Shown: positions 1 through 14,620, counted from the first letter of the stretch. The stretch is 64,000 nt of DNA from Nitrospirales bacterium (GCA_965223685.1 CBDCXG010000003.1:166362-230361), one strand, 5' to 3'. A program made the numbers and translations. Notes: generated by a model from the letters alone, not told the origin.

Positions 1-386
1 AGTGCGGCATTCGTGCCGAGGAGGCCTAAGGTCAGAACCATATCGACAGAGGGTTCCTTTATTAACGCCGTCAGAGCTCGATCGACTTTTTTGACCGACC
101 ATCCGGCATGAATTTGATATTTTTTAGGAAACTGGACATCGAATTCTCCCCTGGTCAGTGAAAGAATTTCTTTTTGGATAAGGCCCTGCCGAATAAATTT
201 CCCCATCCCTAAATCGGAATGTGGTCCATCATACAACACGGCAATTCTCACAATCGGTAATGAACTGGCAATGGATGTAGATGACGTGAACAGCGCAAAG
301 GTCCAGAAAAGAACGAACATGACCAGCCCACGGCTTTTCAGTTGATGCCAACGGGGTTCTCTTAGGGTATTAGTCTGAATTCGCAC
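1..386 (-). CDS. 5' part of an exported protein running off the window edge; resembles the N-terminal region of large TolC-family outer-membrane proteins
   Basis: Manual translation gives an open frame from GTG 386 (or ATG 320) to the edge: ...MFVLFWTFALFTSSTSIASSLPIVRIAVLYDGP...KEILSLTRGEFDVQFP...; hydrophobic signal-like stretch. Family call is from recall only. Confidence 0.45.
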   Translation of the reverse strand, partial: MRIQTNTLREPRWHQLKSRGLVMFVLFWTFALFTSSTSIASSLPIVRIAVLYDGPHSDLGMGKFIRQGLIQKEILSLTRGEFDVQFPKKYQIHAGWSVKKVDRALTALIKEPSVDMVLTLGLLGTNAA

Positions 387-1212
387 GTTATCCGAGTTTA
401 TCTTTAGGTGTTAGTAGAGAGAAAAGGAAATGCTAATGCGTTTGATAATTTCCTGCTCGAGTCATTTTGAAGAATCTGACACTTTGTATCGTTGTTCCGA
501 AGCCTTTTAGCTGAGAGAAAATGGTAGCACTATTAGGAAGGCAAAGGAAGAGAAGGGATAACAGATGACGCCACAATCCTACGTCCCATAGTTGAGGTTT
601 CATCATTTCTATCGAAGACTGTCATGCTTCTATCCATTTCTACAAACTTGGCTATGACGCTTCGCTCCTCCTACGTCCTTAATAATTCGATCCCCGCTTT
701 CCGTCTGTCATCTGCCAAACCAACGAAGAAAGACTGAAAGAGACTTGGCGGAATTCATTCGAAAAATCAAGTGAGATAACATCAAGAATCGAAGTGCTCA
801 TTAATTAATTTAAGGATCTCATCAACAAAGATATACATCACCGGGGCAAATAACACCCAAATCCGCCTCAATTCCTCATCGCTAATTTCGTCTGGCATTA
901 ATCCTTACATTTAATCCCTGACATACACATTTCCTTCCAAGGGCATCATTGCTCCTTGTTTACACTGGATTTTTGAAATATTTGCGAGTTTTTTCAAAAT
1001 TAATTTTATTAGTAGAAATTAGACGTAATGACACAAAAGCGAAATGATGTCGAGGAAAGACTTTGGTGCCTTCGACAGCTATGACAATTCTTCAGAATGT
1101 ATTCAGGAAGTCCGAACAGGTAATAGGTAAAACCGTTCTGTCAGGAAGAAAATCCATGAATAACCAGGAAATTCGTTGATCGTTCTCAAGTTGATATAGA
1201 GCGCGGAAGACA

Positions 1213-4197
1213 ATGGAGATTGCCATATTCAATGATGCTATTTGGATCCTGATTTGTGCCATTATGGTGATGATGATGCAAGCAGGTTTTACTTGCCTCG
1301 AAAGTGGATTGGTACGAGCGAAAAATAGTATCAACGTCGCCATCAAAAATTTTATTGATTTTTGTATTGCTGCCACGCTTTTTTGGGGAGTTGGCTATGG
1401 ATTCATGTTTGGCGTCAGTGCGGCCGGTTGGATAGGAACAGATGGGTTCTTCTTCAACGAACAGACAGAACCATGGTTGTTAGCATTCTTTCTGTTCCAA
1501 CTGACGTTCTGCGGTACCGCCACAACATTAGTGTCTGGAGCGGTTGCGGAACGCATGCGGTTTTCCGGGTATTTAATCATGGCCATGATCATCTCCTGTG
1601 TTATTTATCCTGTAATTGGTCACTGGGTCTGGGGAGGGGCTCCCAATGGAACGCCCAGCGGCTGGTTGGCAAGCAAGGGATTCCTGGATTTCGCTGGTTC
1701 CACAGTAGTTCATTCTACAGGAGGATGGGTGGCTTTGGCCGCAATCCTCTTGATCGGTCCTCGACTCGGACGGTTTGGTGAACATGCGGTTCGGATTCAA
1801 GGACAGGATTTACCACTTGCTACCTTGGGCACCTTTCTCTTGTGGATTGGATGGATGGGGTTCAACGGTGGGAGCACGTTTCACCTTGCGGCGAACATTC
1901 CGCTCATTCTCGTCAACACAACCATGGCTGGCGCAACTGGAGCCTTGATAGCTCTCGCCATCTCTTGGCATCGCCGCGGCTATCCAGATGTGCTTGGGGT
2001 TATGAACGGAGCCTTGGCTGGATTGGTTGGGATAACCGCGTCAGCCCATATTATGTCACTCTCGTCATCTCTTATCATTGGAGCTGTTGCGGGTGTGATT
2101 TCTGTCGTCCTTTCGGACCTTTTGGAAAAGCTAAAGATCGATGATGTGATAGGAGCTGTTCCCGTACATGTGGGTGGAGGGGTTTGGGGAACATTGGCTG
2201 TTGCCCTCTTTAGTGACCCGGCCACGTGGGACACCGGTTTAGGGCGTTGGGAACAACTAGGTGTTCAGGCTATGGGTATTGGTGCCTGCTTTGTGTGGGC
2301 GTTTGGGGGAGGGTTTGCGCTTCTGTGGCTCGTGAACCAATGGTTTCCGCTCAGGGTATCTGCTGAAAGTGAGTGGGAGGGGCTCAATATGTCAGAGCAT
2401 GGAGCAAGTTCTGCGTTGCGTGATCTCCTCGGGGAGATGGATCACCGGCGTCAGACCGGTGATTTCTCTACTCCTGTCTCCGTCGAACCTCATACCGAGA
2501 TTGGGCAGATTGCCTTGGCCTACAACCGTGTCCAAGAAAAGGTCATTGTCGAAACCCAACAACGGGAACATGCTCTTCAAGCGCTGACAGAAAGTGAACA
2601 GCAATTTCGAATGCTGTCAGAGGCCTTACCAATTGGTGCCTTTGAATTAGATTGCGAAGGTCATTGTATCTATCAAAACCACGTCTGTGCAGACATCGTT
2701 CACACCTCGATAGCGCAACCCACCAATAGCGTTCCTCATGTTGCTTCCCATCACTACTGGCTACAGTGGTTTCATCCAAGCATTCAATCCACACTTGAGA
2801 CGAAATGGCAAGCTTTGCTAACGGAACACAAAAAACTTTCAGTCGAATGTCAAATGGCCTCGACACATTCCAGGGACCGCTGGGTTCAGGTGCTGCTGTC
2901 CCCCATAATCAGCGAGCAAACCGTCCGTTATATCGGCACGCTCGAAGATATTTCTGAACGCAAGATTGCTGAAGAAGCCTTACACAAGACGCTTGAAGAA
3001 CGCGAAGAAATTCTTTCTTCGATTTCAGCCATTATGATTGGGATAGATAAGCAAGGTCGAATCAGGCAGTGGAATAAGGTTGCCGAAGAAACATTTGGGA
3101 TTCCGTTCTCTAGCGTAAGACGGCAACCCTTTCAGTTATGTGGCTTGGAGTGGGATTGGCAACAAGTCGGGCAGGCCCTCGAACGGTGCCAGTCAACGTC
3201 TGCACCCGTACATTTGGATAGCTTGACTTACCAACGATCTAATGAAACTGATGGGTTTGTCGCCCTCACGCTGAATCCTTTGATGAGTGATGATGATCCC
3301 AAGTCTTTTAAAGGCATCCTAATGTTAGGAAAGGATATTACTGAACGCAAGCAGCTGGAAATGCAGTTGGGGTTGGCTCAGAAGATGGAATCTATTGGGC
3401 AGCTCGCCGCGGGAATTGCCCATGAAATTAATACTCCGACCCAATTTGTTAGCGATAACCTACGGTTTCTCACGGAGAGTTTTACAGACATCCAAAAAGT
3501 CTTGACCGTCTACGATCAAGTCATAAAGACGTTGCCGCGAGAAGCTCTGGACGCTCAACTGCTTGAGACGATGGAGACCACGATCGCTGAGGCCGATCTA
3601 GAATATGTCAGCGAAGAGATTCCCAAAGCCCTCCAGCAATCGTTAGATGGCTCCGAACGAGTCGGAAAAATTGTGCGGGCTATGAAAGATTTTTCGCATC
3701 CTGGCACCACGGAGAAAAAGCCGATTGATCTGAATCAAGCGATTGAGAGTACGATTACTGTCGCCCGCAATGAGTGGAAGTATGTGGCTGACGTGGTGAC
3801 GGCTTTTGATCCCCAGATGCCCGTCGTTCCTTGCCTACCGGGGGAATTCAATCAAGTCATTCTTAATTTGTTGATCAATGCCGCTCATGCGATTGAAGCG
3901 GCGATGGGGCCAGAGGCCGAGGTAAAAGGGACAATTACGGTTACCACACGGATGACGGAGTCTGGTGCAGAGATTCGGGTCACTGATACCGGCACTGGTA
4001 TCCCCGAAGCTGCGCGCAAAAAGCTTTTCGATCCCTTCTTTACGACAAAAGAAGTAGGCAAAGGAACGGGACAAGGGCTTGCCATTGCCCATGATGTCAT
4101 TGTGAACAAACATGGAGGCACCTTAACGTTTGAGTCGACGATTGGGGTTGGCGCCACCTTTATTATTCAGTTGCCATGTGAACCAATCGCAGTATAA
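1213..4197 (+). CDS. Ammonium transporter (Amt) domain fused to HAMP-like linker, two PAS domains and a histidine kinase (HisKA + HATPase)
   Basis: Amt motifs MQAGFTCLESG, FQLTF, HWVWGG, DFAGSTVVHSTGG, WIGWMGFNGGS, DDVIGAVPVH (twin His intact); PAS ends DISERK and DITERK; H-box GIAHEINTP; N, G1, F and G2 boxes (NLLINAAHA, DTGTGI, FDPFFTTK, GKGTGQGL). Confidence 0.95.
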   Translation: MEIAIFNDAIWILICAIMVMMMQAGFTCLESGLVRAKNSINVAIKNFIDFCIAATLFWGVGYGFMFGVSAAGWIGTDGFFFNEQTEPWLLAFFLFQLTFCGTATTLVSGAVAERMRFSGYLIMAMIISCVIYPVIGHWVWGGAPNGTPSGWLASKGFLDFAGSTVVHSTGGWVALAAILLIGPRLGRFGEHAVRIQGQDLPLATLGTFLLWIGWMGFNGGSTFHLAANIPLILVNTTMAGATGALIALAISWHRRGYPDVLGVMNGALAGLVGITASAHIMSLSSSLIIGAVAGVISVVLSDLLEKLKIDDVIGAVPVHVGGGVWGTLAVALFSDPATWDTGLGRWEQLGVQAMGIGACFVWAFGGGFALLWLVNQWFPLRVSAESEWEGLNMSEHGASSALRDLLGEMDHRRQTGDFSTPVSVEPHTEIGQIALAYNRVQEKVIVETQQREHALQALTESEQQFRMLSEALPIGAFELDCEGHCIYQNHVCADIVHTSIAQPTNSVPHVASHHYWLQWFHPSIQSTLETKWQALLTEHKKLSVECQMASTHSRDRWVQVLLSPIISEQTVRYIGTLEDISERKIAEEALHKTLEEREEILSSISAIMIGIDKQGRIRQWNKVAEETFGIPFSSVRRQPFQLCGLEWDWQQVGQALERCQSTSAPVHLDSLTYQRSNETDGFVALTLNPLMSDDDPKSFKGILMLGKDITERKQLEMQLGLAQKMESIGQLAAGIAHEINTPTQFVSDNLRFLTESFTDIQKVLTVYDQVIKTLPREALDAQLLETMETTIAEADLEYVSEEIPKALQQSLDGSERVGKIVRAMKDFSHPGTTEKKPIDLNQAIESTITVARNEWKYVADVVTAFDPQMPVVPCLPGEFNQVILNLLINAAHAIEAAMGPEAEVKGTITVTTRMTESGAEIRVTDTGTGIPEAARKKLFDPFFTTKEVGKGTGQGLAIAHDVIVNKHGGTLTFESTIGVGATFIIQLPCEPIAV

Positions 4198-4244
4198 GGA
4201 ATTGAAAGCTCATGGCTGCCAAAGTGATTGAGGGGGACCATGCA

Positions 4245-5939
4245 ATGAAAATTTTGGTTGCCGACGATAGCACGACCTATCGAGGGATCTTCCAAGCTCT
4301 CTTGAGTCAATGGGGTTTTGATGTCATTTTAGCTGCAGATGGTCAACAGGCCTTCCGTCTCTATCAGGAAGGAAACGGGGCCCTCTTGGCACTTGTTGAC
4401 TGGGAAATGCCCAATATGAGCGGTGTGGAACTATGTCAGCAACTTCGCAAGACTGACTCTATTGTTCAACCCTATATCATCATGGTCACCACGAAGGAAG
4501 AGGGGGCTGATAAGGTTTGTGCCTTGGACGCGGGTGCAGATGATTTCGTACCGAAACCTTTCAATGAAGAGGAGCTGCGAGCTCGGCTTCGGGTGGGAGA
4601 GCGAACGATTTCACTCCAGCAGCATCTCTTGCAGTCACTTATGGAACTGGAACGTACAACTAAAGTACAACAACAAACGGAACAAGAATTACGTAGAGCT
4701 TTTTCTGAAACCAAAGGTCTTGTCGCTTCAATTTCGCTTATCCTTATTGAAATAGACTTAGAAGGAAAAATTCAGCAATGGAATGATGCGGCCACAGAAA
4801 CATTTGATATTTCTGCTTCCTCCGTCATAGGCAAGAATATTGGGGGCTTAGCTCCTAAACTTTGGGAGTGGTCAAAGATCATGCAAGGCATTATAGAATG
4901 TGAAGAAAAAGGTCGGGCTCTCAAATTAGGTGAAATACTCTTCATGCGTCCTTCAGGAAAAGAAGGCATCCTAGAAGTCACGCTTAATCCACTTTTTACT
5001 GATGAAGGTATACGCTTTGGACTGTTGTTACTTGGTGAAGACATCACGGAACGCAAACAGTTAGAAGCCCAACTGGGACTGGCTCAGAAGATGGAATCCA
5101 TCGGGCAATTGGCCGCTGGCATTGCTCATGAAATCAACACCCCCACTCAATTTGTCAGTGACAACTTGCGGTTTCTGACTGAAAGTTTTGGGGACATTCA
5201 AAAAGTTCTGACCGTCTACGAGCAGGTGATCAAGTCCTTGCCTCCCGATGTCATTGATCGCCATCTCTTGACCACCATGGAGAATACGGTGGCCGAGGCC
5301 GATCTAGAATACGTCAGCGAAGAGATTCCCAAAGCCCTTCAGCAATCGTTAGACGGCTCCGAACGAGTCGGAAAAATCGTACAGGCCATGAAAGAGTTTT
5401 CGCATCCTGGCACCACGGAGAAAAAGCCGATTGACCTGAATAAAGCCATCGAGAGCACGATTACCGTAGCCCGCAATGAGTGGAAATATGTGGCTGACGT
5501 GGTGACGGATTTTGATCCCCAGTTGCCCGTCGTTCCGTGCCTGCCGGGGGAATTCAATCAAGTCATTCTCAATTTGTTGATCAATGCCGCCCATGCCATT
5601 GAGACGGCGTTGGGGCCAGAGGCCGAGGTCAAAGGAACGATCACGGTCACCACGCGGATAACGGAGTCCAGCGTAGAGATTTGGCTCACTGACACTGGCA
5701 CTGGTATTCCCGAAGCCGTCCGTAAAAAGCTCTTTGATCCCTTCTTTACGACAAAAGAAGTAGGCAAAGGAACGGGACAAGGGCTTGCCATTGCCCATGA
5801 TGTCATTGTGAACAAACATGGAGGCACCTTAACGTTTGAGTCGACGATTGGGGTTGGCACCACCTTTATTATTCAGTTGCCTTGTGATCAAGTGGGTAAT
5901 GCGGAGGAACATGATGAAGCACCAAATCTTGTTTGTTGA
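4245..5939 (+). CDS. Hybrid signalling protein REC-PAS-histidine kinase
   Basis: N-terminal receiver (ILVADD...LVDWEMP...TT...KPF), PAS ending DITERK, kinase core nearly identical to the upstream gene; start moved to ATG 4245 after GAGGGG. Confidence 0.93.
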   Translation: MKILVADDSTTYRGIFQALLSQWGFDVILAADGQQAFRLYQEGNGALLALVDWEMPNMSGVELCQQLRKTDSIVQPYIIMVTTKEEGADKVCALDAGADDFVPKPFNEEELRARLRVGERTISLQQHLLQSLMELERTTKVQQQTEQELRRAFSETKGLVASISLILIEIDLEGKIQQWNDAATETFDISASSVIGKNIGGLAPKLWEWSKIMQGIIECEEKGRALKLGEILFMRPSGKEGILEVTLNPLFTDEGIRFGLLLLGEDITERKQLEAQLGLAQKMESIGQLAAGIAHEINTPTQFVSDNLRFLTESFGDIQKVLTVYEQVIKSLPPDVIDRHLLTTMENTVAEADLEYVSEEIPKALQQSLDGSERVGKIVQAMKEFSHPGTTEKKPIDLNKAIESTITVARNEWKYVADVVTDFDPQLPVVPCLPGEFNQVILNLLINAAHAIETALGPEAEVKGTITVTTRITESSVEIWLTDTGTGIPEAVRKKLFDPFFTTKEVGKGTGQGLAIAHDVIVNKHGGTLTFESTIGVGTTFIIQLPCDQVGNAEEHDEAPNLVC

Positions 5940-7113
5940 TGACGAACCTCGCATATTAGAAGGGCTCAAACGCATGCTACGACCCATGCGGCGTGACTGG
6001 GAAATGTCTTTCGCCAATGGCGGCAAAGAGGCATTGGCTTTTCTCGAACATACGGCCGTTGATGTCGTCGTCTCCGACGTCCGCATGCCGGTCATCAACG
6101 GCGTTCAACTTTTGACGCAAGTGAAAAATCTCTATCCACACACTATTCGAATTTTGCTCTCCGGACAGTCTGATGAAGAGATGACTCTTTCGGCAATCGG
6201 ACCAGTCCATCAGTATCTTAATAAACCCTGTGACGCAAATATTCTGAAATCCACGATCACTCGCGCCTGTGCCCTGCGCGACCTCCTCAATGATGAACAA
6301 ATCCGGCAGCTGGTTTCTCAAATAGATACGATTCCTAGCGTGCCCGACTTGTATGTTGAGCTGGAAAAGGAATTACATTCGCCAGAATGCGCAATGGAAA
6401 ATGTGGCTGCGATCATGGCCAAAGATGTTGGGATGACGGCAAAAATCTTGAAGCTTGTGAATTCAGCGTTTTTTGGCACTCAACAACATATTTCAGATAT
6501 TACCCAAGCCGTCATGTACCTTGGCATTGATACCATCAAGACCCTTGTTTTGAGCATTCAGATCTTTCAGCAACTGGGGGCAATCATGTGTCACGGCTTT
6601 GACTTGGATCGGTTCAGCCAACACAGTCTGGCTGTCGCAGACGTTGCTCGAAAAATCATGATTTCAGAACAAGCGAATGGACAGATGGTTGACGAGACGT
6701 TGGCGGCAGCGATGCTTCATGACTTAGGAGCCCTCCTGTTCGTCTCGCATTTTCCTGATCGTTATCAAGAATGTCTGAGGGCGGCGTGCGATCAAAAGGT
6801 TCCTCTTTACGAAGCAGAGCTCCAAACAATTGGCATCACTCATGCTGAAGTAGGGGCTTATCTTCTTGGATTGTGGGGGCTGAACACTCCGATTGTGGAA
6901 GCGGTGGCCTATCATCACACTCCACTTGGAAGTCTCAACCAACAATTTTCCCCCCTTACCGCTGTGCATGTTGCCAATGTCTTGGTATCCGAGGGCACTG
7001 ATAGGTTATTACAGGAAAAGGTCAAGAATACAATATGTATGGAGTATATCGATGCCATGGGTCTTAGCAATCGTGTGGGACATTGGCAGAATTTAGTTGA
7101 AATTCTCGTGTGA
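5911..7113 (+). CDS. Response regulator with HDOD output domain
   Basis: ILFVDDE...VVSDVRMP...LLSG...NKPC receiver; HDOD motifs IPSVP, DVGMTAKILKLVNSAFFG, MLHDLG, THAEVGAYLLGLWGL; GGAGG RBS before ATG 5911. Confidence 0.92.
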   Translation: MMKHQILFVDDEPRILEGLKRMLRPMRRDWEMSFANGGKEALAFLEHTAVDVVVSDVRMPVINGVQLLTQVKNLYPHTIRILLSGQSDEEMTLSAIGPVHQYLNKPCDANILKSTITRACALRDLLNDEQIRQLVSQIDTIPSVPDLYVELEKELHSPECAMENVAAIMAKDVGMTAKILKLVNSAFFGTQQHISDITQAVMYLGIDTIKTLVLSIQIFQQLGAIMCHGFDLDRFSQHSLAVADVARKIMISEQANGQMVDETLAAAMLHDLGALLFVSHFPDRYQECLRAACDQKVPLYEAELQTIGITHAEVGAYLLGLWGLNTPIVEAVAYHHTPLGSLNQQFSPLTAVHVANVLVSEGTDRLLQEKVKNTICMEYIDAMGLSNRVGHWQNLVEILV

Positions 7114-7136
7114 AGGGTTCAATGGAGGCACAAACC

Positions 7137-8300
7137 ATGGACAAGGTCCTGTTAGTGGATGACGAACCGAGTGTATTAGACGCTCTCAAACGTCAGTTTC
7201 GTAAGCAATTTCAGCTCTTTACAGCTGTTGGTGGAGAGCAAGGGCTTGAGAAGATCACAGCCGAGGGACCATTTTCTGTCGTGGTGTCAGATTGTAAGAT
7301 GCCAAGAATGAATGGCATTGAATTCCTTTCCCGGGTACGTTCAGTGAGCCCTGACTCTGTGCGTATGATGCTCACCGGGAATAATGACTTAGACACAGCC
7401 ATGGAAGCTGTCAATCAAGGCGAGATTTTTCGTTTTCTTACAAAACCCTGTCCGCCGGAAACGTTTAAAATCTCGATCGAAGCGGCCATAAAGCAATATC
7501 GGCTTCTTCGAGCTGAGAAAGAACTCTTAGAACAGACTCTGACTGGATCTCTCAAGGCATTGGCCGATGTTCTTTCACTGTATAATCCAGAGGCATTTGC
7601 TCGTGCGGCACGAGTCAAACGCTATGCCTTAGGATTGGCGAAAGAAATGGGCGTACCGGAAGTATGGGACCTCGAAATCGCCTCAACGCTGTCTCAAATA
7701 GGATATATCACCCTTCCCAAAGAGCTGTTGCAGAAAAAAGATTCAGGGCAGCCCTTGACTTCTGATGAAACGAATGCGTTTTCTCAGTATCCAGAAGCAG
7801 GGCGGAATATTCTCGGGAATATTCCTCGGATGGAGGACGTGGCAGACCTCATTCATTGTCAGCATAAACATTTTGACGGATCAGGACTGCCAGAAGATGC
7901 TCGGAAAGGTGACACGATTCCCTTGGGTGCTCGACTCCTGAAGGTTGCTCTGGACTTTGATGAACTCCGCATGCAAGAAATTTCAAGATCCGAAGCTTTT
8001 GCAAAACTAGAGGTACGAACGGGCTGGTACGATCCGAAAATGCTTGATGCGCTGAAGGTGGCCTTTGTCCCCGAGCAACAGTATAAAATTGTTTCTATTT
8101 CTCTCAGTGAGCTTCAACCAAACATGGTGTTAGCAGATGGGATTTGTGATAGCAAGGGCCAACTTCTTGTAGGAAAAGGGCAGGATTTGTCGGAATGGAT
8201 GGTCACCCGACTGAAACAAATGACCGGAAACCAGGCCGTTCAAGAACCCATTCAGATTCTCGTTCAAGAGCCTCTTGACTGTGAAACATGCCATGCATAA
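7137..8300 (+). CDS. Response regulator with degenerate HD-GYP (RpfG-like) domain
   Basis: Receiver LLVDDE...VVSDCKMP...LTG...TKPC; HD motif replaced by LSQIG and HHERxDGSGYP by QHKHFDGSGLP; GGAGG RBS before ATG 7137. Confidence 0.88.
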   Translation: MDKVLLVDDEPSVLDALKRQFRKQFQLFTAVGGEQGLEKITAEGPFSVVVSDCKMPRMNGIEFLSRVRSVSPDSVRMMLTGNNDLDTAMEAVNQGEIFRFLTKPCPPETFKISIEAAIKQYRLLRAEKELLEQTLTGSLKALADVLSLYNPEAFARAARVKRYALGLAKEMGVPEVWDLEIASTLSQIGYITLPKELLQKKDSGQPLTSDETNAFSQYPEAGRNILGNIPRMEDVADLIHCQHKHFDGSGLPEDARKGDTIPLGARLLKVALDFDELRMQEISRSEAFAKLEVRTGWYDPKMLDALKVAFVPEQQYKIVSISLSELQPNMVLADGICDSKGQLLVGKGQDLSEWMVTRLKQMTGNQAVQEPIQILVQEPLDCETCHA

Positions 8301-8378
8301 GGACACCCAGACCCACAGGCTGTTAGGAAAATTCTGACCAATCACTCCCAGGCTTGCGGAATATAGGAGCCATGTCTC

Positions 8379-8783
8379 ATGGAAAAAATTCTTCTCGTTG
8401 ACGATGAGCCGAATGTCTTGGATGCACTTAAACGTGAATTCCACAAACAATTTCACCTACATACTGCATTGGGCGGACAGGAGGCACTCGCTACGCTCAG
8501 GATCTCAGGTCCCTATGCAGTCGTTGTCTCAGATTGCCGTATGCCTAGTATGGATGGGATTCAACTTCTCTCTCTTGTTCGAAAAGTTGCACCGAACACG
8601 GTGCGGATGATGCTAACTGGAAATAATGACATGGAGACAGCAATCGAGGCAGTCAACAAGGGAGAGATTTTTCGCTTTCTCACAAAACCGTGCCCATCCG
8701 ATACTTTCCACGCAGCAATCGCCGACGGCATAAAACAATATCATCTTAATTGCTCAAAAAAGCCCTCCTCCATTTCCTATTAA
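8379..8783 (+). CDS. Single-domain response regulator, paralogue of the receiver of the preceding gene
   Basis: LLVDDE...VVSDCRMP...MLTGNND...FRFLTKPC; ends just after the receiver domain. Confidence 0.88.
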   Translation: MEKILLVDDEPNVLDALKREFHKQFHLHTALGGQEALATLRISGPYAVVVSDCRMPSMDGIQLLSLVRKVAPNTVRMMLTGNNDMETAIEAVNKGEIFRFLTKPCPSDTFHAAIADGIKQYHLNCSKKPSSISY

Positions 8784-8866
8784 AGGCACCTCTAAAAACT
8801 GGTGTTTTTTTCTGAGGGCAAGGAAGCCGCGCGCGAAAAACCGCCTTGTAGGGGCCAATACAAGGA

Positions 8867-9070
8867 GGGAGTGTTGAATAATGAAGATATCAATGGCCAT
8901 ATTTCGCCAGGAGGCCCTTGGCGATCGTCTGTTCAAAAAAGTCCGTCCAGTCCTGTCCTGCGGCCTCCCGAAGGGAAGGCAGCAAGCCTTTTTGCGCGCG
9001 GAGCGTACTGGCACTACGTGAACACGGAAAAAGGGCGAGTACGCGGCTGGCGGCTTTTTTCAACAGACCC
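8867..9070. mobile_element. MITE-A copy 1 (204-bp variant)
   Basis: Ends GGGAGTGTTGAA / TTCAACAGACCC; flanked by direct repeat AAGGA (8862-8866, 9071-9075). Confidence 0.9.
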
Positions 9071-9082
9071 AAGGATGAAGGC

Positions 9083-10492
9083 GTGACAAACCCGTCGGCA
9101 GCTCAAGTAGCACCTGGTTGTCGCATCCGCTCCATCTCCTATTGCGTGTCCTGTGCTGTGTCAATACTTGTGCTGTCAACGCTTCCAGTTAAAGCGAACG
9201 ACAGTGGCGCGAACTTGGCTGCGCCAGCAATCGAGTCAGTCTACGACCCATATCGCGGAATGGACGAGGATGGCCGGATTCCCAAGATAGACAAGGCAGC
9301 CTTAGTTGCTCGGCCAGAACGCTGGCGGGATGTGCCGGAGGGGCGACTCAAACCCGGCGGATTTTTCGAGCGTTTCCTTATCTCAAGCTTCCTGGTTCCG
9401 CTCTTTTTCGCCAACTCCGATGTTGGGATTGGAGTAGGTGCAGCGCTCACCGATATTGATTTCCGTGCACAACGTCGCCGGGAGTTCATGGGGGCATTTA
9501 TCTCCTACACGACCGAAGGCCAGCAGAGTTATGTGTTACGCTGGCGACGCTGGGTTAAGCATCTCGAAGTCCTACCTGGAGGCGTGCTTCAGGAAGAGCG
9601 CAGCTTTTTCAGCCTAGGCGGGGGGTATCGGAAAACACTGACCCGTCGTTTCTTTGGAATTGGTCCTTCTACCCGAGAAAGTCAGGAGACCAGCTTTACC
9701 GACGCAGTCGCTTTTCTGGACCTTGGGCTTTCAACATCTCTGGAGGGGGCATTTGACGACGTTGTTCTGGATGTAGGGTTGCGAGGAGAACACCACTGGC
9801 TCAGCCGGGGCCGAGTCGGGGACGCCGGACAAACCGACAGAGAGTTTCCCAAGCTCTTCGCCTAGGCGGATCCCTATGGCCTCGGCTGGGTAGCCGCTGG
9901 AGTTCGCTGGGACACGCGCGATAGCCAGCGTAATCCCTATCGTGGGACGGTTCTAGGAGCAAGGGTCGATGCCGCACTACTCCAGAACAATTGGAATCGT
10001 GGTGCGATCTACCGACTCTTTGGTGATCAGTTAATCCCCGTCCCAGGACTGTTTCACGACGGAGGAGACAAGGACGAGGAGCATCCTCCAACTGACACCG
10101 TCGCGATTCACCTTGAGAGCCAACTCAGCTCTGGTGATTTACCTTTTTTTGCTCTCCCCACACTTGGCGGCAGTAGAGTGTTACGGGGATATATCGCGGG
10201 TCGTTGGCGGGACGATGCAGCCTGGGCCACAGCGACGGAATATCGCTTCTGGGTTTTCCCGCGGGGATTCAATGTGTGGCGGCATATTCGAGTCGAACGC
10301 CTCGGGCTGGCGATCTTTTACGAGCTCGGTGGTGTGGCATCGGACGGACTTCGCTTTTTTCAGGAACGTGTGCGTCAAAGCTACGGGATCAGTGGGCGCT
10401 TCACTTTAGAACGTGCGGCCATTTTCCGTGCCGATTTTGGGTTCTCGGAAGATGGCGTCAATTTCTCAGTGGGCTTCGGCCTACCCTTTTGA
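9083..10492 (+). pseudogene. BamA/TamA (Omp85) family outer-membrane beta-barrel gene with an in-frame TAG at 9863-9865
   Basis: ORFs 8918-9865 and 10178-10492 share one frame, which stays open after the TAG (ADPYGLGW...DTRDSQRNPYRG...LGGSRVLRGY...); C-terminal FSVGFGLPF beta-signal; signal-peptide-like N-terminus. Confidence 0.75.
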
Positions 10493-10506
10493 TCCGTGTT
10501 TCTAAT

Positions 10507-10544
10507 GGGTTTGTCGAAAAAAGCCGCCAGCGGCGTTCTCGCCA
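10507..10544. repeat. MITE-A fragment (one end only)
   Basis: GGGTTTGTCGAAAAAAGCCGCCAGCGGCGTTCTCGCCA matches the first 38 nt of full copies. Confidence 0.8.
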
Positions 10545-10748
10545 GTTTTATCCGCGGGGCCTATCCTATGTGCGTAAGCATGGGGCCCTAGAGATAATGC
10601 CGCTGGTGGGAGTTTCTGCTCCTGATAGCAATTCGGAGGGAGAAGGAATTGAGGTTCTACGGCCTGATCTACTCTTTTACACCTCACTAGATGCTCAATT
10701 CCATGGCAACTGGTGTTCATAGTGACGCCTGGCGAACCGTCTTCTGAA

Positions 10749-11114
10749 CTACGTAAGCTCGTGCTCCTTAACAATGAATGCTGAAGATTGAGCGTGATCA
10801 ATAAAGTTCCCCTCATCTTCTAGGAGCGCGGCACCTAATTTTTGCCCCTCCGGTGAACTCATGGCCTCCATGAGATCGTTTTCTGATTCAAACCACACCT
10901 CTGCAACACCATCATATTCTGGTAACATGCCCCTCGAATTTCTTAGCCCTTCGTTTATAGGGGTATCAATCGTAAGAGATTGCACATATTTCTTTGCTCG
11001 CATAGCGCCAGCATTTTTCATGAAGAAAGGGCCATGTTTGTTCGTCCAATAATCTTGAAACTGCTCACGAGTCATACTTGGATGCCGGCGTAAACACATC
11101 ACAAATTTGATCAT
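10749..11114 (-). CDS. EthD-family (dimeric alpha-beta barrel) protein
   Basis: MIKFVMCLRRHPSMTREQFQDYWTNKHGP...YDGVAEVWFES...DEGNFID pattern. Confidence 0.85.
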   Translation of the reverse strand: MIKFVMCLRRHPSMTREQFQDYWTNKHGPFFMKNAGAMRAKKYVQSLTIDTPINEGLRNSRGMLPEYDGVAEVWFESENDLMEAMSSPEGQKLGAALLEDEGNFIDHAQSSAFIVKEHELT

Positions 11115-11186
11115 TTCACCATACTCCTTTATTAAGATAGACGGCCGAACTTTCTAGGCATGTTCTCATTATTTCTAGCACAACTC

Positions 11187-11275
11187 AATGACTGCGAACT
11201 CGCCGAGAATATCTGTTCGCCAATGGGAATGAATTCTAGGGCTTCGATGGTCCCAACATGACCCAAGAGCGGACT
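11187..11275. repeat. Degenerate palindromic gene-boundary repeat, copy R1
   Basis: AATGACTGC...CTAGGGCTTCGA...ACCCAAGAGCGGACT; shares ends with copies R2-R7. Confidence 0.55.
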
Positions 11276-11360
11276 AAAGATGTTTCTGGTTTGTGATAGT
11301 CTTCCCGAATCTTCATGCCCTCAAGCATAATATGAACCTCATTATTCCGAGGATCTATCC

Positions 11361-11939
11361 GTGATAGAAATTGACCGCTTGGATCATTTAGTCCTAACTG
11401 TTGCCGATGTTGAAAAGACCGTAGCTTTTTACGAAAGGGTGTTGGGGTCTGTTGAAAAAAGCCGCCAGCGACGTTCTCGCTATTTTCCCGTGCTCACATA
11501 ATGCCAGTATGCTCCGCGCGCAAAAATAGCTGCGGCCTTGCTGAACGGACTTTTTTGAACAGATCCAAGGCCTCTGACATCTTATGTCTCAAAGACTAAA
11601 TGTGGCCATTGATATCATCATTATTCAACAGTTCGTTTAGGGATGAAGCGAGTTTCATGTGGCGAAGGCCGCATAGCCTTGTCATTTGGAAATCAGAAAA
11701 TTAACTTACATCAACTTGGCCAAGAATTTGAGCCAAAGGCTGGGAATGTAGGGGCAGGTAATGCTGATCTGTGTTTTATCTTGAAAACGCCTATAGAGGA
11801 AGCTCAAAGACATCTTGAACAATGTGGGGTCGCAATTATAGATGGGCCTGTAGCACGAACCGGAGCGGTTGGGAACATGACATCACTCTATTTTAGGGAT
11901 CCCGACCTGAATCTAATCGAAGTTTCGAAGTATGAGTGA
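11361..11939 (+). pseudogene. VOC/glyoxalase-family gene split by MITE-A
   Basis: GTG 11361 (GAGGA RBS) encodes MIEIDRLDHLVLTVADVEKTVAFYERVLG; the insertion brings a stop; the frame resumes at ATG 11643 (MKRVSCGEGRIAL...SLYFRDPDLNLIEVS). Confidence 0.9.
11445..11635. mobile_element. MITE-A copy 2, inside the VOC gene
   Basis: Collinear with the 191-bp copy at 22866; right TIR and TSD are degenerate. Confidence 0.88.
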
Positions 11940-11942
11940 GCA

Positions 11943-12183
11943 AATGACAACTTTTGGCCAAAAGCTCTAGGTTTGAAGATCGACAGGACGCAGCCCAGGC
12001 CGTGTGAAAACTTCACTGCCATCTAAGGGTAGAAATACACTTCACAAGCAGCGTGACAAGCCACTGCTTAGCCCTGGATGCGATAACGTCTATCAGTGGG
12101 TGGATTGATTGGCCTCAACTGAAGACTTGAAAGGCTTAAAGGCAATTTCAGAAGGTCGTTTTCACACCGCCCATAGCGGACGT
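11943..12183. repeat. Palindromic gene-boundary repeat R2, interrupted by MITE-B
   Basis: 11955-11997 TGGCCAAAAGCTCTAGGTTTGAAGATCGACAGGACGCAGCCCA nearly matches 14635-14677; continues as TAGCGGACGT after the insert. Confidence 0.8.
11998..12171. mobile_element. MITE-B copy 1 (174 bp, IS1182-like ends)
   Basis: TIRs GGCCGTGTGAAAAC / GTTTTCACACCGCC; CA duplicated on both sides; alignable with 37660-37837. Confidence 0.8.
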
Positions 12184-13283: not shown

Positions 13284-14081
13284 ATGTCTACATTTACCTG
13301 GGATGCTCGGGACTATGAGAAGCACTCACACGCCCAAAAGAAATGGGCAAGAGAGTTAATAGCGAAGATAGACCTTGAGAAGACTGAAGCTATTCTTGAT
13401 ATAGGCTGTGGGGATGGAAAAATAACCGCAGAGCTTGCGAATTGCGTTCCCTATGGCCGCGTTGTTGGCATCGATAGCTCCAAAGCAATGGTGGAACTTG
13501 CGAAGAATGTCTATACGGTTAGTAAGTATCCAAATCTTTCGTTCGTGAATATGGATGCTGTGCATTTGGCTTTTAAAGAGCAGTTTGACGTAGTGTTTTC
13601 GAATGCCGCCTTGCATTGGATCAAAGATCATGGCCCAATGCTAAAAGGGATCTTCAGAAGTCTGAAGTCCAGAGGTCGGGTGTTGTTACAAATGGGAGGC
13701 AAAGGGAACGCAGAAGGTGTCCTTTCTGTCTTACAAGAACTCCAGAAACAACTACGATGGCGTCAGTATTTTTCAGATTTCAAGGTTCCGTATGGTTTTC
13801 ATGGACCTCCCGAATACTCAGAATGGTTGCGTGAGGTGGGCTTTACTATTGAGCGGGTAGAGCTTATACCCAAAGATATGGAACATGAGGGCAAAGCAGG
13901 TTTGGCTGCATGGGTCCGAACAACGTGGTTGCCCTTTACGGAACAAGTACCACCAGAGCAACGAGATCAGTTCATTCATGAGGTGGTCGAGAAATATATT
14001 GACCGCGCACCACTTGATGCACATGGCAAAGCACATGTTGCCATGATGAGATTAGAAGTGGAGGCTTCTAAAAAACTATAA
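13284..14081 (+). CDS. Class I SAM-dependent methyltransferase (trans-aconitate methyltransferase-like)
   Basis: ILDIGCGDG motif I, VVGIDSS, FDVVFSNAALHW. Confidence 0.9.
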   Translation: MSTFTWDARDYEKHSHAQKKWARELIAKIDLEKTEAILDIGCGDGKITAELANCVPYGRVVGIDSSKAMVELAKNVYTVSKYPNLSFVNMDAVHLAFKEQFDVVFSNAALHWIKDHGPMLKGIFRSLKSRGRVLLQMGGKGNAEGVLSVLQELQKQLRWRQYFSDFKVPYGFHGPPEYSEWLREVGFTIERVELIPKDMEHEGKAGLAAWVRTTWLPFTEQVPPEQRDQFIHEVVEKYIDRAPLDAHGKAHVAMMRLEVEASKKL

Positions 14082-14101
14082 CTTTTGCATGTAGGTGAAT
14101 C

Positions 14102-14501
14102 TATGATTACTGCAGAAAGCGACACACGTGCATATCTCACACGCTTCTCCAATGGCACGTATGATGGATTCGCTGACACCATACACGAAAAAGGTGGAGG
14201 AGAGCGTGGCTTTCGCCCACACGACTTGCTGGAGGCTGCTCTGGCATCTTGTATCAATATGACGGTACGGATGTACGCCGATAAGCATCGCATTCGTTTA
14301 GAAGGAGTGACAACGAAAGTGTCATTGAATCGAGATACGGAGGGGGAAGCTCGTTTCGAGTATCACCTCGAGTTCCTTGGAGAACTTGAGCCGGATCAGA
14401 AAGAACGGTTGTTTAAGGTGGCGGAGCAATGCCCAGTTCGCAAAACACTTTCGCGTACCATTGCGTTTGGATATCTAAGTGAAGAGAAATGTGACATGTA
14501 A
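14102..14501 (+). CDS. OsmC/Ohr family protein
   Basis: GFRPHDLLEAALASC...RMYA and AEQCPVRKTL (two conserved Cys). ORF track opens at TTG 14085; the exact start is uncertain. Confidence 0.85.
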
Positions 14502-14620
14502 TCCAGTCTGAAATGACTCAGGTCGCCCTAGCCCAAATTGGGAAATGTAAGCGAAACGGCATTTTGTTGCGTCAAAAGTATATAAAAGGCCTAAACAGAC
14601 GAAAAGGCATGGAGATATAT

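What the first reader, a model, noticed from the sequence alone, without database searches (positions are those of the whole stretch)
1213..8783. Ammonium-sensing phosphorelay with no DNA-binding output: Amt-PAS-PAS-kinase, REC-PAS-kinase, REC-HDOD, REC-(dead HD-GYP), REC
Seen: one tightly packed operon whose first gene fuses a full Amt domain to a HAMP-like stretch, two PAS domains and a kinase. The AmtB-equivalent pore residues all appear present (Phe gate, Trp, Ser, Asp, twin His). None of the four downstream proteins has an HTH; the outputs are HDOD, a catalytically degenerate HD-GYP and a bare receiver. Known: an Amt-kinase ammonium sensor was characterised in the anammox bacterium Kuenenia (Ks-Amt5). 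Inference: this is an ammonium-sensing cascade in a probable nitrite oxidiser that acts post-transcriptionally (protein interaction, c-di-GMP binding, motility or attachment), for example to track ammonia-oxidiser partners. I do not know of this five-gene module being described.
Basis: partly seen in the sequence, partly recalled or inferred. Interest (0 to 1): 0.88.

Follow-up and report, generated by a model that had tools for sequence, protein, structure and literature searches.

The report
Ammonium-sensor kinase feeding a conserved regulator cassette
A Nitrospirales bacterium fuses an ammonium-transporter-like sensor to a signalling kinase and places it in front of a gene trio found in many bacterial phyla, but never studied as a unit, that has no DNA-binding output; this names the first candidate downstream partners for this class of ammonium receptor.

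Summary
Five co-oriented, tightly packed genes at 1213-8783 encode Amt-HAMP-PAS-PAS-kinase, REC-PAS-kinase, REC-HDOD, REC plus a degenerate HD-GYP, and a bare REC. None has a DNA-binding or Hpt domain.

The Amt domain matches the published ammonium-receptor (AmR) N1/N2 signature exactly. It is closer to the Shewanella receptor Sd-Amt1 than to Ks-Amt5.

The main new result is that genes 3 and 4, together with a kinase of this type, form a conserved cassette found across more than ten phyla with very different sensor inputs. Its HD-GYP is not decayed. It belongs to an old pseudo-enzyme clade with its own conserved motifs (R / SQ / Q-x-K / G-x-P). The HDOD keeps a full set of metal ligands.

Five of the eight closest Amt-kinases looked up elsewhere sit beside the same REC-HDOD and REC-pseudo-HD-GYP pair. 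The ammonium link is therefore recurrent.

The two kinases share an 89% identical core, so they probably serve the same receivers.

"Phosphorelay" is the wrong word, because there is no Hpt domain. The nitrite-oxidiser ecology could not be tested. Canonical c-di-GMP binding residues are absent.

Verdict: a real, functional, new variant built from known parts. It is moderately interesting and directly testable.

The parts
973..1000 (+). Weak sigma-70-like promoter match upstream of g1. It lies just upstream of the conserved block, which begins at 1073.
   Evidence: TTGAAA-16-CAAAAT, 9/12 matches, not above chance for the region. One search shows that homology to L001 begins at 1073.
1213..4197 (+). 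g1: ammonium-receptor histidine kinase, 994 aa (Amt-HAMP-PAS-PAS-DHp-CA).
1240..2409 (+). g1 Amt domain (aa 10-399). It carries the N1/N2 receptor signature Q23, E30, N46, D49, F50, T105, S108; the exit-narrowing N265; and the pore residues W140, S221, F99, F217, H167 and H319.
   Evidence: 400 bits. (433 bits to Sd-Amt1 8QJ3/8QPF, 324 bits to Ks-Amt5 6EU6). (regex match at aa 23-108). Signature taken from PMC11152129.
2416..2541 (+). g1 HAMP-like linker (aa 402-443).
   Evidence: Pfam HAMP at 23.7 bits, just under the cutoff of 25. The stretch aligns with the Sd-Amt1 linker up to aa 459; PMC11152129 describes that linker as a HAMP domain.
2620..2964 (+). g1 PAS domain 1 (aa 470-584).
   Evidence: PAS_4, 27.9 bits against a cutoff of 23.1.
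2995..3354 (+). g1 PAS domain 2 (aa 595-714).
3343..4197 (+). g1 kinase core. It has a DHp with phospho-acceptor H737 in AHEINTP (an H-E-x-x-T phosphatase-type motif), a ~45 aa insert between the DHp helices, and a CA domain with N, G1, F and G2 boxes at aa 885, 925, 939 and 951.
   Evidence: The core is 89% identical to the g2 core. DNA repeats 3334-3536 / 5040-5242 and 3568-3867 / 5274-5573 are 77% and 91% identical.
4212..5939 (+). g2: soluble REC-PAS-histidine kinase, 575 aa. REC spans aa 14-126 with D17, D18, D63, T93 and K115. PAS spans aa 173-283. The phospho-acceptor is H306. CA spans aa 448-559.
5911..7113 (+). g3: REC-HDOD response regulator, about 400 aa. The start is probably ATG 5911 or 5914, after GGAGG at 5903-5907; the ORF opens at 5836. 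In ORF numbering, REC spans aa 31-141 and HDOD aa 166-363. H295, D296, H336, H360 and H361 are invariant in 62 orthologues.
7110..8300 (+). g4: REC plus pseudo-HD-GYP response regulator. GTG 7110 overlaps the g3 stop codon; ATG 7137, after GGAGG at 7124-7128, is the more likely start (387 aa). REC lies at 7146-7469, the degenerate HD-GYP-like helical domain at 7557-8039, and a conserved small beta domain at 8082-8267.
8379..8783 (+). g5: stand-alone receiver, 134 aa, 66% identical to the REC of g4. D9, D10, D52, T81 and K104 are all present.

Best explanation
This is a branched two-component pathway that reports extracellular ammonium.

Sensing. g1 is a membrane ammonium receptor of the AmR class. 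NH4+ is selected by the normal Amt entrance (Trp/Ser, Phe gate, twin His). It is then diverted into the lateral N1/N2 pocket instead of leaving through the Asn-narrowed exit. That movement passes through the HAMP and PAS domains to the kinase, which phosphorylates H737. This step is inferred by homology with Ks-Amt5 and Sd-Amt1.

Second kinase. g2 is a soluble kinase whose DHp helices are almost the same as those of g1 (96% and 94% identical). It should therefore serve the same receivers and could even pair with g1. It adds a second input through its own REC and PAS domains. The kinase-docking helix of its REC is unlike that of the other three receivers, so g2 is probably fed by a different donor.

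Receivers. Both kinases are predicted to phosphorylate, and (given the H-E-x-x-T motif) dephosphorylate, the three similar receivers of g3, g4 and g5.

Output. The output is post-translational. g3 is a REC-gated HDOD domain with an intact di-metal site, so it is a candidate phosphohydrolase or ligand-binding module. g4 is a REC-gated pseudo-HD-GYP that cannot hydrolyse and most likely acts by binding a partner; the co-translated g3 is the obvious candidate, by analogy with HnoD and NosR. g5 is a sink or competitor derived from the REC of g4.

What is shown and what is inferred. Shown: the domain content, motifs, conservation and gene linkage. Inferred: the ammonium response, the phosphotransfer map and the nature of the final target.
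For: AmR identity. The Amt domain matches QX6EX15NX2D[F/T]X54-60TX2[S/T] exactly at aa 23-108. That regex hit 13 of 80 long or fused Amt ORFs and 0 of 33 short Amt ORFs in the fetched loci (signature). N265 corresponds to Sd-Amt1 N269. The best solved relatives are Sd-Amt1 (433 bits, including the HAMP linker) and Ks-Amt5 (324 bits).

Functional kinases. H-box, N, G1, F and G2 boxes are present in g1 and g2.

Functional receivers. DD, D, T/S and K are present in all four RECs here and in all 52 cassette homologues examined.

Linkage. The same five genes in the same order occur in Nitrospirales MAG L001 at 91% nt identity, with dN/dS 0.08-0.15 for every gene. Among the eight nearest Amt-kinases looked up, four have REC-HDOD then REC-HD_5 directly downstream, one has them divergently with an extra REC, and two have one of the pair.

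Cassette. In kinase-seeded loci, 39 of 79 have the adjacent REC-HDOD + degenerate REC-HD-GYP pair. In loci seeded on the pseudo-HD-GYP, 45 of 63 have the adjacent REC-HDOD and 41 of 63 also have a kinase of this type. A short stand-alone REC sits next to the pair in 11 loci. Kinase inputs vary: MHYT, CHASE3, a periplasmic binding domain, dCache+GAF, REC and multiple PAS.

Shared specificity. The g1 and g2 kinase cores are 89% identical, with DHp helices 96% and 94% identical, while their PAS domains are only 38% identical.

Pseudo-enzyme. The conserved R/SQ/Q-x-K/G-x-P set contrasts with H/HD/HHE/GYP in non-cassette copies. The family comprises 876 clusters at 50% identity with E<=1e-30. The AF2 model has pLDDT 89.6, and its best HD-GYP structural match is the SQ-type receptor DvhD.

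Analogies. HnoD and NosR are REC-degenerate HD-GYP regulators phosphorylated by their kinases.
Against: Ammonium dependence of the kinase is inferred only from two characterised relatives, and both differ in the linker or the transducer. In the NJ tree and identity table, the g1 kinase core groups with non-Amt cassette kinases of related Nitrospirales, not with the cores of other Amt-kinases. The Amt-to-cassette junction in this lineage may therefore be recent, and its coupling is unproven. The phosphotransfer map is inferred from adjacency and sequence similarity alone. A g3-g4 interaction rests on analogy and translational coupling only. HDOD domains have no established substrate: DVU0330 showed only weak activity on an artificial substrate and none on c-di-GMP.
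Confidence: 0.68

Rival explanations
1. Linear cascade. g1 does not talk to g3-g5 directly. It phosphorylates the REC of g2, which switches on the g2 kinase, and only g2 feeds the three response regulators. g2 to g5 would then be the complete ancestral cassette and g1 an added upstream sensor.
For: In many other loci a REC-PAS-kinase is the only kinase of the cassette (for example L005, L010, L012, L016, L188 and L193). A sensor kinase paired with a REC-kinase recurs in L002, L007, L019, L057, L070, L163, L176, L195 and L211.
Against: The g1 and g2 DHp helices are 96% and 94% identical, so whatever g2 phosphorylates g1 should phosphorylate too. The first helix of the g2 REC (DDSTTYRGIFQALL) is unlike the shared DDEPxxLxxLKR of g3, g4 and g5. 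That makes it a poor match for a kinase tuned to those three. Four Amt-kinase loci have the pair but no REC-kinase at all.
Confidence: 0.15
2. The pseudo-HD-GYP of g4 is a metal-independent cyclic-dinucleotide receptor like DvhD. On this view the pathway reads out or gates c-di-GMP (or cGAMP) levels and does not act purely through protein contacts.
For: g4 and its family carry the same HD->SQ replacement as DvhD, and DvhD is the best HD-GYP structural match (TM 0.71-0.74 on the target, 26% identity). DvhD binds c-di-GMP without metals with a Kd of about 99 nM. The former active site of the family is lined by invariant polar residues (Q187, Q242, K244, R266, D273), which looks like a re-purposed pocket and not decay.
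Against: The residues that hold c-di-GMP in DvhD (R650, Y652, R653) and in PmGH (RxY[K/R], KPG, Tyr of GYP) are not conserved. g4 reads D-E-L-R-M-Q-E-I-S-R where the RxYK motif sits, the family consensus has Gly at the Arg position, KPG is replaced by KKDSG, and the GYP Tyr is variable.
Confidence: 0.25
3. g1 is a transporting Amt with a regulatory tail (a transceptor). On this view it takes up ammonium for assimilation, and the kinase reports flux, not binding.
For: All transport-pore residues are intact. PMC11152129 notes that some proteins with the N1/N2 signature, such as the plant AMT1s, do transport.
Against: g1 has the Asn (N265) that narrows the exit and the Phe/Glu pair (F26, E30) that opens the side pocket in the two non-transporting receptors. 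It lacks the Tyr/Ser pair of assimilatory Amts. No glnK is adjacent.
Confidence: 0.1

Closest known systems
Sd-Amt1 of Shewanella denitrificans (PDB 8QJ3/8QJ4/8QPF; Pfluger et al. 2024, PMC11152129)
   Same: It is the closest solved relative (433 bits). It shares the Amt receptor module with the identical N1/N2 ligand set, the exit Asn and a homologous HAMP linker alignable to g1 aa 459.
   Different: Its transducer is a diguanylate cyclase that makes c-di-GMP directly. Here the transducer is PAS-PAS-histidine kinase followed by separate response regulators.
Ks-Amt5 of 'Candidatus Kuenenia stuttgartiensis' (PDB 6EU6; Pfluger et al. 2018, PMC5764959)
   Same: An Amt module is fused to a histidine kinase, and ammonium binding without transport raises kinase phosphorylation. 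It belongs to the same AmR class.
   Different: It is more distant in sequence (324 bits). According to the authors' comparison with Sd-Amt1, the connection between sensor and signalling domain differs fundamentally. The two papers name no cognate response regulator.
H-NOX/HnoK-HnoB-HnoC-HnoD network of Shewanella oneidensis and Vibrio cholerae (Plate and Marletta 2012, as summarised in bioRxiv 10.1101/2021.11.05.467447)
   Same: One kinase feeds several receivers. One of them is HnoD, a REC + degenerate HD-GYP that does not hydrolyse c-di-GMP and acts by inhibiting another response regulator.
   Different: The signal is NO, sensed by a separate protein. The partner enzyme is a REC-EAL and there is a DNA-binding regulator. 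There is no HDOD protein, and the degenerate motifs differ (SE / QLE).
NosP-NosK-NosR of Burkholderia pseudomallei and B. thailandensis (PMC12570481); NCBIfam NF053512
   Same: NosR is a REC + degenerate HD-GYP (HG-GTP) phosphorylated within seconds by a kinase with an HEINN H-box. NF053512 is the best NCBIfam match of g4 and covers the pseudo-HD-GYP and the C-terminal domain.
   Different: g4 scores 270 bits against a cutoff of 400. The signal and sensor differ, and no HDOD partner is described.
DvhD of Desulfovibrio vulgaris (PDB 9RBZ/9RC0; PMC13090378)
   Same: Its HD-GYP domain has SQ in place of HD, binds no metal, is catalytically dead and is used as a receptor. It is the best HD-GYP structural match to the g4 model.
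   Different: It is a membrane dCache-PAS protein, not a response regulator. It keeps GYP and the Arg/Tyr/Arg nucleotide clamp, which the g4 family lacks.
REC-HDOD response regulators GsmR (Xanthomonas campestris) and DVU0330 (D. vulgaris), and the HDOD structure 3HC1 (Geobacter)
   Same: They have the same REC-HDOD architecture. Like DVU0330 and 3HC1, g3 keeps the HD-type metal ligands.
   Different: GsmR lacks the active-site His and affects expression of motility genes. No substrate or partner is known for any of them, and none is described in a trio with a pseudo-HD-GYP.
LvrA/LvrB of Leptospira (PDB 8VC9; NCBIfam NF047466)
   Same: LvrB is a REC-then-kinase protein that works beside a second kinase. 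Its kinase core resembles those of g1 and g2.
   Different: Similarity is limited to the kinase core (105-119 bits against a cutoff of 500). The partners and outputs differ.

Membership tests
AmR class of sensory Amt proteins (Pfluger et al. 2018, 2024) | Amt/Rh fold (PF00909) of 11 TM helices | tested here: met
   Pfam 400 bits over aa 10-399; TIGR00836 415 bits against a cutoff of 343.
AmR class of sensory Amt proteins (Pfluger et al. 2018, 2024) | N1/N2 signature QX6EX15NX2D[F/T]X54-60TX2[S/T] | tested here: met
   Exact regex match at aa 23-108 (Q23, E30, N46, D49, F50, T105, S108); signature quoted.
AmR class of sensory Amt proteins (Pfluger et al. 2018, 2024) | Conserved entrance and pore residues (Trp/Ser, Phe gate, twin His) plus an Asn narrowing the exit and Phe/Glu opening the side pocket | tested here: met
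   W140, S221, F99, F217, H167, H319, N265, F26 and E30, by alignment to Sd-Amt1.
AmR class of sensory Amt proteins (Pfluger et al. 2018, 2024) | C-terminally fused cytoplasmic transducer module | tested here: met
   HAMP-PAS-PAS-DHp-CA at aa 402-994.
AmR class of sensory Amt proteins (Pfluger et al. 2018, 2024) | Binds NH4+ without net transport, and NH4+ changes transducer activity | not testable with these tools
   Needs electrophysiology and autophosphorylation assays.
Phosphorelay (His-Asp-His-Asp) | An Hpt (or Spo0B-like) second histidine carrier between two receivers | tested here: not met
   No Hpt (PF01627) or other phosphotransfer family hit in any of the five proteins at E<=0.01. 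The REC of g2 is N-terminal to its own kinase.
Class I histidine kinase | H-box His in a DHp, plus N, G1, F and G2 boxes in the CA domain | tested here: met
   g1 has H737 and boxes at aa 885, 925, 939 and 951. g2 has H306 and boxes at aa 454, 494, 508 and 520. HATPase_c scores 79 and 76 bits. Pfam HisKA is below its cutoff because of an unusual long DHp.
Receiver (REC) domains able to be phosphorylated | Acidic pair, phospho-acceptor Asp, Thr/Ser and Lys | tested here: met
   All four RECs have them. They are invariant in 52 homologues of g4 and 62 homologues of g3.
HD-GYP c-di-GMP phosphodiesterase (RpfG family, as defined by Galperin and Chou) | Metal ligands H, HD, H, HHE, D | tested here: not met
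   They are replaced by R165, S195/Q196, Y227, Q251-H252-K253 and L281.
HD-GYP c-di-GMP phosphodiesterase (RpfG family, as defined by Galperin and Chou) | Substrate-binding KPG, GYP Tyr and RxY[K/R] | tested here: not met
   KKDSG replaces KPG, GLP replaces GYP and E-I-S-R replaces RxYK. The family consensus also lacks them.
HD-GYP c-di-GMP phosphodiesterase (RpfG family, as defined by Galperin and Chou) | HD-GYP fold following a REC domain | tested here: met
   Pfam HD_5 at 143 bits. The AF2 model (pLDDT 89.6) matches DvhD, PmGH and PA4781 HD-GYP domains.
NosR family (NCBIfam NF053512) | Whole-protein score at or above the curated cutoff of 400 bits | tested here: not met
   270 bits: a relative, not a member.
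HDOD domain (PF08668) | Pfam model above the gathering score | tested here: met
   189 bits against 22.9. Best PDB relative is 3HC1.
HDOD domain (PF08668) | Di-metal site of five His and one Asp, as in 3HC1 | tested here: inconclusive
   H295, D296, H336, H360 and H361 are invariant in 62 orthologues, and H263 aligns with the His of 3HC1. Geometry and metal content were not tested.

The most novel reading that the evidence does not exclude
The kinase -> REC-HDOD + REC-pseudo-HD-GYP trio is an unrecognised output module that spans many phyla. In it an active di-metal HDOD hydrolase and its inactive HD-superfamily partner, both gated by phosphorylation, together set the level of a nucleotide messenger or its breakdown product (for example pGpG). 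In this Nitrospirales lineage and several others the module has been wired to an Amt receptor, so extracellular ammonium directly controls second-messenger turnover and hence the choice between motile and attached lifestyles. The soluble twin kinase g2 may also pair with the odd third kinase arm of the trimeric Amt, which would solve the trimer-versus-dimer mismatch noted for these receptors.
Probability: 0.2. Interest if true: 0.8.

Novelty: new variant of a known kind. Interest (0 to 1): 0.58.

Why it matters
Two ammonium receptors of this class have been characterised structurally. The papers on them (Ks-Amt5 and Sd-Amt1) name no downstream partner for the kinase type and list its signalling role as future work. 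This locus, and at least five independent relatives, point to one specific and conserved set of partners. That turns the question "what does an Amt-kinase talk to?" into a phosphotransfer experiment with four named substrates.

The work also shows that thousands of proteins auto-annotated as "RpfG family c-di-GMP phosphodiesterase" belong to a clade that lacks every catalytic residue and always travels with an HDOD response regulator. This gives a concrete handle on two poorly understood domains, HDOD and degenerate HD-GYP.

For nitrogen-cycle microbiology, it suggests that some Nitrospirales, Planctomycetota and other bacteria sense external ammonium through a non-transcriptional route. None of this is a new principle of signalling.

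Tried and rejected

(2) The Rfam scan of 1-12000 at E<=0.1 found nothing. ORFs of 30 aa or more in the ~850 nt AT-rich upstream region look like noise.

(3) The promoter and terminator scans were not above chance and gave no internal + strand terminator of note. They support an operon only weakly.

(4) A genome scan seeded on the Amt+HAMP part brought mostly SAR11 long Amts and Planctomycetaceae Amt-HK-REC-REC hybrids. It found no further cassette, because the exact peptide patterns bias the sample. The protein-identity look-ups were needed instead.

(5) 'Phosphorelay' was rejected for lack of an Hpt domain.

(6) 'Recently decayed HD-GYP' was rejected because the replacement residues are conserved across phyla and g4 has dN/dS 0.09.

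(7) 'Canonical c-di-GMP receptor' was downgraded because the nucleotide clamp is absent.

(8) NosR membership was rejected on score.

(9) The literature searches 'ammonium transporter' + HDOD (0 papers), HDOD + HD-GYP + response regulator + histidine kinase (5 papers) and HDOD alone found no description of the trio. The library lacks most subscription-journal papers, so this is absence in that library only.

(10) I did not identify the C-terminal beta domain of g4; it has no Pfam hit.

(11) The nitrite-oxidiser claim could not be tested from the window. Neither nxr nor any other diagnostic gene was among the ORFs scanned.

Full report
**1. What is in the sequence**

The region 1213-8783 holds five ORFs on the + strand. 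Pfam assigns them as follows.
- g1 (1213-4197, 994 aa): Ammonium_transp at aa 10-399 (400 bits); a borderline HAMP at aa 402-443 (23.7 bits, cutoff 25); PAS_4 at aa 470-584 (27.9 bits, cutoff 23.1); a second PAS at aa 595-714; HATPase_c at aa 879-990.
- g2 (4212-5939, 575 aa): REC-PAS-kinase.
- g3: REC-HDOD (189 bits).
- g4: REC-HD_5 (143 bits).
- g5: a bare REC of 134 aa.

No HTH and no Hpt family hit any of the five.

The genes are packed. There are 14 nt between g1 and g2. g3 most likely starts at ATG 5911 or 5914, after GGAGG at 5903-5907, and so overlaps the end of g2. GTG 7110 overlaps the g3 stop codon, but ATG 7137 after GGAGG at 7124-7128 is the better g4 start. g5 follows after 78 nt. 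Pattern scans for promoters and terminators were no better than chance, and Rfam found nothing.

**2. The sensor**

The best solved relatives of g1 are Sd-Amt1 of Shewanella denitrificans (8QJ3/8QPF, 433 bits; the alignment runs through the linker to g1 aa 459) and Ks-Amt5 (6EU6, 324 bits). Assimilatory AmtB and Amt-1 lie far behind at 144-192 bits.

Pfluger et al. 2024 (PMC11152129) define ammonium receptors (AmR) by a lateral two-site NH4+ pocket with the signature QX6EX15NX2D[F/T]X54-60TX2[S/T]. They also describe an Asn that narrows the cytoplasmic exit and a Phe/Glu pair that opens the side path.

g1 matches the signature exactly at aa 23-108 (Q23, E30, N46, D49, F50, T105, S108). It also has F26, N265 and the usual W140, S221, F99/F217, D159 and H167/H319. 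The same regex matched 13 of 80 long or fused Amt ORFs and none of 33 short ones in the loci I fetched, so the match is informative.

g1 therefore meets every sequence-level criterion of the AmR class. Ammonium binding without transport, and ammonium control of the kinase, remain inferred.

Amt-PAS-kinase fusions are common. There were more than 6000 hits at E<=1e-20 among the candidates scored, including cyanobacteria, Nitrospirota, Nitrospinota, Planctomycetota and Acidiferrobacterales.

**3. The two kinases**

Both g1 and g2 have an AHEINTP H-box (H737 and H306; an H-E-x-x-T phosphatase-type motif) and N, G1, F and G2 boxes.

Their kinase cores are 89% identical, with DHp helices 96% and 94% identical. 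The PAS domains just upstream are only 38% identical. At the DNA level, 3568-3867 and 5274-5573 are 91% identical.

In an NJ tree the g1 and g2 cores of the window and of L001 are each other's closest relatives. The g1 core is 66-71% identical to non-Amt cassette kinases of related Nitrospirales and Nitrospinota, but only 47-61% identical to the cores of other Amt-kinases. The Amt domains of those other proteins are 51-61% identical to that of g1.

The simplest reading is that the kinase core was copied or converted between g1 and g2 shortly before the window and L001 lineages split. The functional consequence is inferred: the two kinases should have the same receiver specificity and could heterodimerise.

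The first helix of the g2 REC (DDSTTYRGIFQALL) differs from the DDEPxxLxxLKR shared by g3, g4 and g5. g2 is therefore probably fed by another donor and adds a second input.

**4. The response regulators**

All four RECs keep the acidic pair, the phospho-acceptor Asp, Thr/Ser and Lys. The REC of g5 is 66% identical to that of g4.

*g4.* Alignment with PmGH, PA4781, V-cGAP3 and DvhD shows that every metal ligand is replaced: H->R165, HD->SQ, H->Y227, HHE->QHK. GYP has become GLP.

I examined 52 REC-HD-GYP ORFs from the first set of loci. The copies that sit next to a REC-HDOD almost all share R / SQ / C / H / Q-x-K / G-x-P. Five copies elsewhere in the same loci are canonical H / HD / K / H / HHE / GYP. 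A 58-sequence alignment has invariant Q187, Q242, K244, G248, G250, R266, D273, Y298 and D299.

The family is large:
- 4949 hits at E<=1e-10 in the word-indexed search, mostly auto-named 'RpfG family c-di-GMP phosphodiesterase';
- 876 clusters at 50% identity with E<=1e-30 in the exhaustive search.

This is an old, conserved pseudo-enzyme clade, not recent decay.

An AF2 model (pLDDT 89.6) shows a REC, a long helix, a helical HD-GYP-like domain and a small C-terminal beta domain. Its best HD-GYP match is DvhD of D. vulgaris (9RBZ). DvhD also has SQ for HD and binds c-di-GMP without metals (PMC13090378). However, the g4 family lacks the Arg/Tyr/Arg clamp (RxY[K/R]), the KPG motif and the GYP Tyr that hold the nucleotide, so binding in the known mode is doubtful.

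The best NCBIfam match is the NosR family at 270 bits, below the cutoff of 400. NosR of Burkholderia is a REC + degenerate HD-GYP phosphorylated by NosK. HnoD of Shewanella is a similar protein that inhibits a REC-EAL enzyme.

*g3.* Its HDOD keeps H295-D296, H336 and H360-H361, which are invariant in 62 orthologues. It aligns best with 3HC1, the Geobacter HDOD that binds two irons through five His and one Asp. An enzymatic or metal-dependent output is therefore possible. The only REC-HDOD assayed with these residues, DVU0330, showed only weak activity on bis-pNPP and none on c-di-GMP.

**5. Conservation of the gene set**

A Nitrospirales MAG (L001, CBDCWD010000004.1) has the same five genes in the same order. 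It is 91% identical at the nucleotide level across window 1073-8866. dN/dS is 0.076, 0.090, 0.151, 0.090 and 0.148 for g1 to g5.

The other 78 loci from that scan were pulled in by the kinase half alone. In 39 of the 79 loci an adjacent, same-strand REC-HDOD + degenerate REC-HD-GYP pair follows the kinase.

Seeding instead on the pseudo-HD-GYP alignment gave 63 loci at 31% identity or more. Of these, 45 have the adjacent REC-HDOD and 41 also have a kinase of this type within 1.5 kb. Several of the rest are truncated contigs. A short stand-alone REC sits next to the pair in 11 loci.

The carriers span Nitrospirota, Nitrospinota, Desulfobacterota, Planctomycetota (including Brocadia and Scalindua), Chloroflexota, Acidobacteriota, Armatimonadota, Verrucomicrobiota, Bacteroidota/Kapaibacteria, Calditrichota, Leptospirales, Gemmatimonadota, and Alpha-, Gamma- and Zetaproteobacteria.

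The kinase inputs differ widely: MHYT, CHASE3, a periplasmic phosphonate-binding-like domain, dCache+GAF, REC and multiple PAS. The trio is thus a constant output cassette with exchangeable inputs.

**6. Is ammonium input to this cassette recurrent?**

I looked up the genomic places of the eight nearest Amt-kinases that lie on contigs long enough to judge.
- P0002, P0005, P0006 and P0013 have REC-HDOD then REC-HD_5 immediately downstream.
- P0018 has REC-HDOD, REC-HD_5 and a 117-aa REC transcribed divergently.
- P0021 has only REC-HDOD.
- P0025 has a separate HDOD gene and a REC-HD_5.
- P0003 has neither adjacent.

So five of eight carry the full pair. The association holds across Amt-kinases whose kinase cores are only 47-61% identical to that of g1. 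A pattern-based genome scan with the Amt half found other architectures (Amt-HK-REC-REC hybrids, long SAR11 Amts) and no further cassette, which reflects the sampling method.

**7. Mechanism proposed**

Shown: the architecture, the motifs, selection and linkage. Inferred: everything that follows.
- NH4+ binding in the N1/N2 pocket of the g1 trimer changes kinase/phosphatase balance through the HAMP and PAS domains.
- g1 and g2 act on the same three receivers.
- g3 is the effector.
- g4 is a phosphorylation-dependent modulator, most plausibly of g3, with which it is translationally coupled.
- g5 is a sink or competitor.
- The final target is unknown.

Rivals are a strict g1 -> g2 -> regulators cascade, a DvhD-like nucleotide-receptor role for g4, and a transporting 'transceptor' g1. 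Each comes with a stated refuting experiment in the Rival explanations section.

**8. Comparison with what is known, and novelty**

Each part has a described relative:
- AmR sensors (Ks-Amt5, Sd-Amt1);
- REC-degenerate HD-GYP (HnoD, NosR);
- the SQ-type HD-GYP receptor (DvhD);
- REC-HDOD (GsmR, DVU0330);
- REC-kinase (LvrB).

I found no description of the kinase / REC-HDOD / REC-pseudo-HD-GYP trio as a unit, or of any downstream partner of an Amt-kinase. The caveat is that the library lacks most subscription-journal papers. I therefore class the finding as a new variant of a known kind.

'Phosphorelay' is a misnomer. The nitrite-oxidiser ecology is untested: the nearest genome is labelled only Nitrospirales, and the rest of the window shows a [NiFe] hydrogenase cluster but no nxr among the ORFs scanned.

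**9. Limits**

My neighbourhood counts use my own ORF calling and phmmer/hmmsearch probes built from the window's domains. The samples were seeded by short peptide patterns, so the fractions are indicative and do not amount to a census. The NJ tree has no support values. No complex modelling was possible.

Noticed in passing
window 8867-10495: The gene after g5 (weak Omp85-like; 93% aa identity to a 506-aa ORF in L001) has an in-frame stop near 9863-9865 ('PKLFA*ADPYG'). It also has a ~200 nt insert (8867-9069) at its 5' end relative to L001. It may be a pseudogene, or this may be an assembly error.
   Followed up: partly
window 9018-9070 (-) and 11445-11499 (+); L001 7204-7258: A ~55 nt sequence is repeated in the window and is also present in L001 (87-93% identity). 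One window copy (9018-9070) ends exactly where homology to L001 resumes after the insert; the other (11445-11499) lies about 1 kb beyond the end of the shared block. It may be a small dispersed repeat or a MITE-like element.
   Followed up: no
window 1073-10495 versus L001 9861-19059: The window and the Nitrospirales MAG share only this ~9.4 kb block (the five genes plus the Omp85-like gene) at 87-91% nt identity. The flanks held on either side are not homologous, so the block has been rearranged or moved.
   Followed up: partly
window 365-1212: About 850 nt of AT-rich (~40% GC) sequence lies upstream of g1. It has no convincing ORF and no Rfam match. Only its last ~140 nt are conserved with L001.
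   Followed up: partly
window 17982-37564 (- strand): A [NiFe] hydrogenase cluster: large and small subunits (32776-35378), a HycI-like protease (30603-31442), HypB/E/D/F-like maturation genes (18683-25754), NifU-Rieske and NHL-repeat proteins, and a sigma-54 REC-AAA-HTH regulator (36086-37564).
   Followed up: partly
window 13284-16971: An ECF-type sigma factor (14687-15283) lies among three SAM-dependent methyltransferase genes.
   Followed up: no
window 8082-8267 (g4 C-terminus): A conserved ~60-residue beta-rich domain follows the pseudo-HD-GYP. It is modelled with high confidence, has no Pfam match, and is also covered by the NCBIfam NosR profile. Its function is unknown.
   Followed up: partly
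L089-L124 (Pelagibacteraceae genomes): SAR11 genomes carry two tandem long Amt genes (716 and 745 aa). Their ~300-aa C-terminal extensions are not kinase or REC by my probes and do not match the strict N1/N2 regex.
   Followed up: no
L002, L007, L019, L057, L070, L163, L176, L195, L211: A sensor kinase paired with a REC-kinase recurs beside the REC-HDOD / pseudo-HD-GYP cassette. The two-kinase design of the window is therefore not unique.
   Followed up: partly
proteins P0121-P0240: Public annotations call members of the pseudo-HD-GYP clade 'RpfG family c-di-GMP phosphodiesterase' or 'HD domain-containing phosphohydrolase', although they lack all catalytic residues. This is a systematic mis-annotation.
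   Followed up: partly
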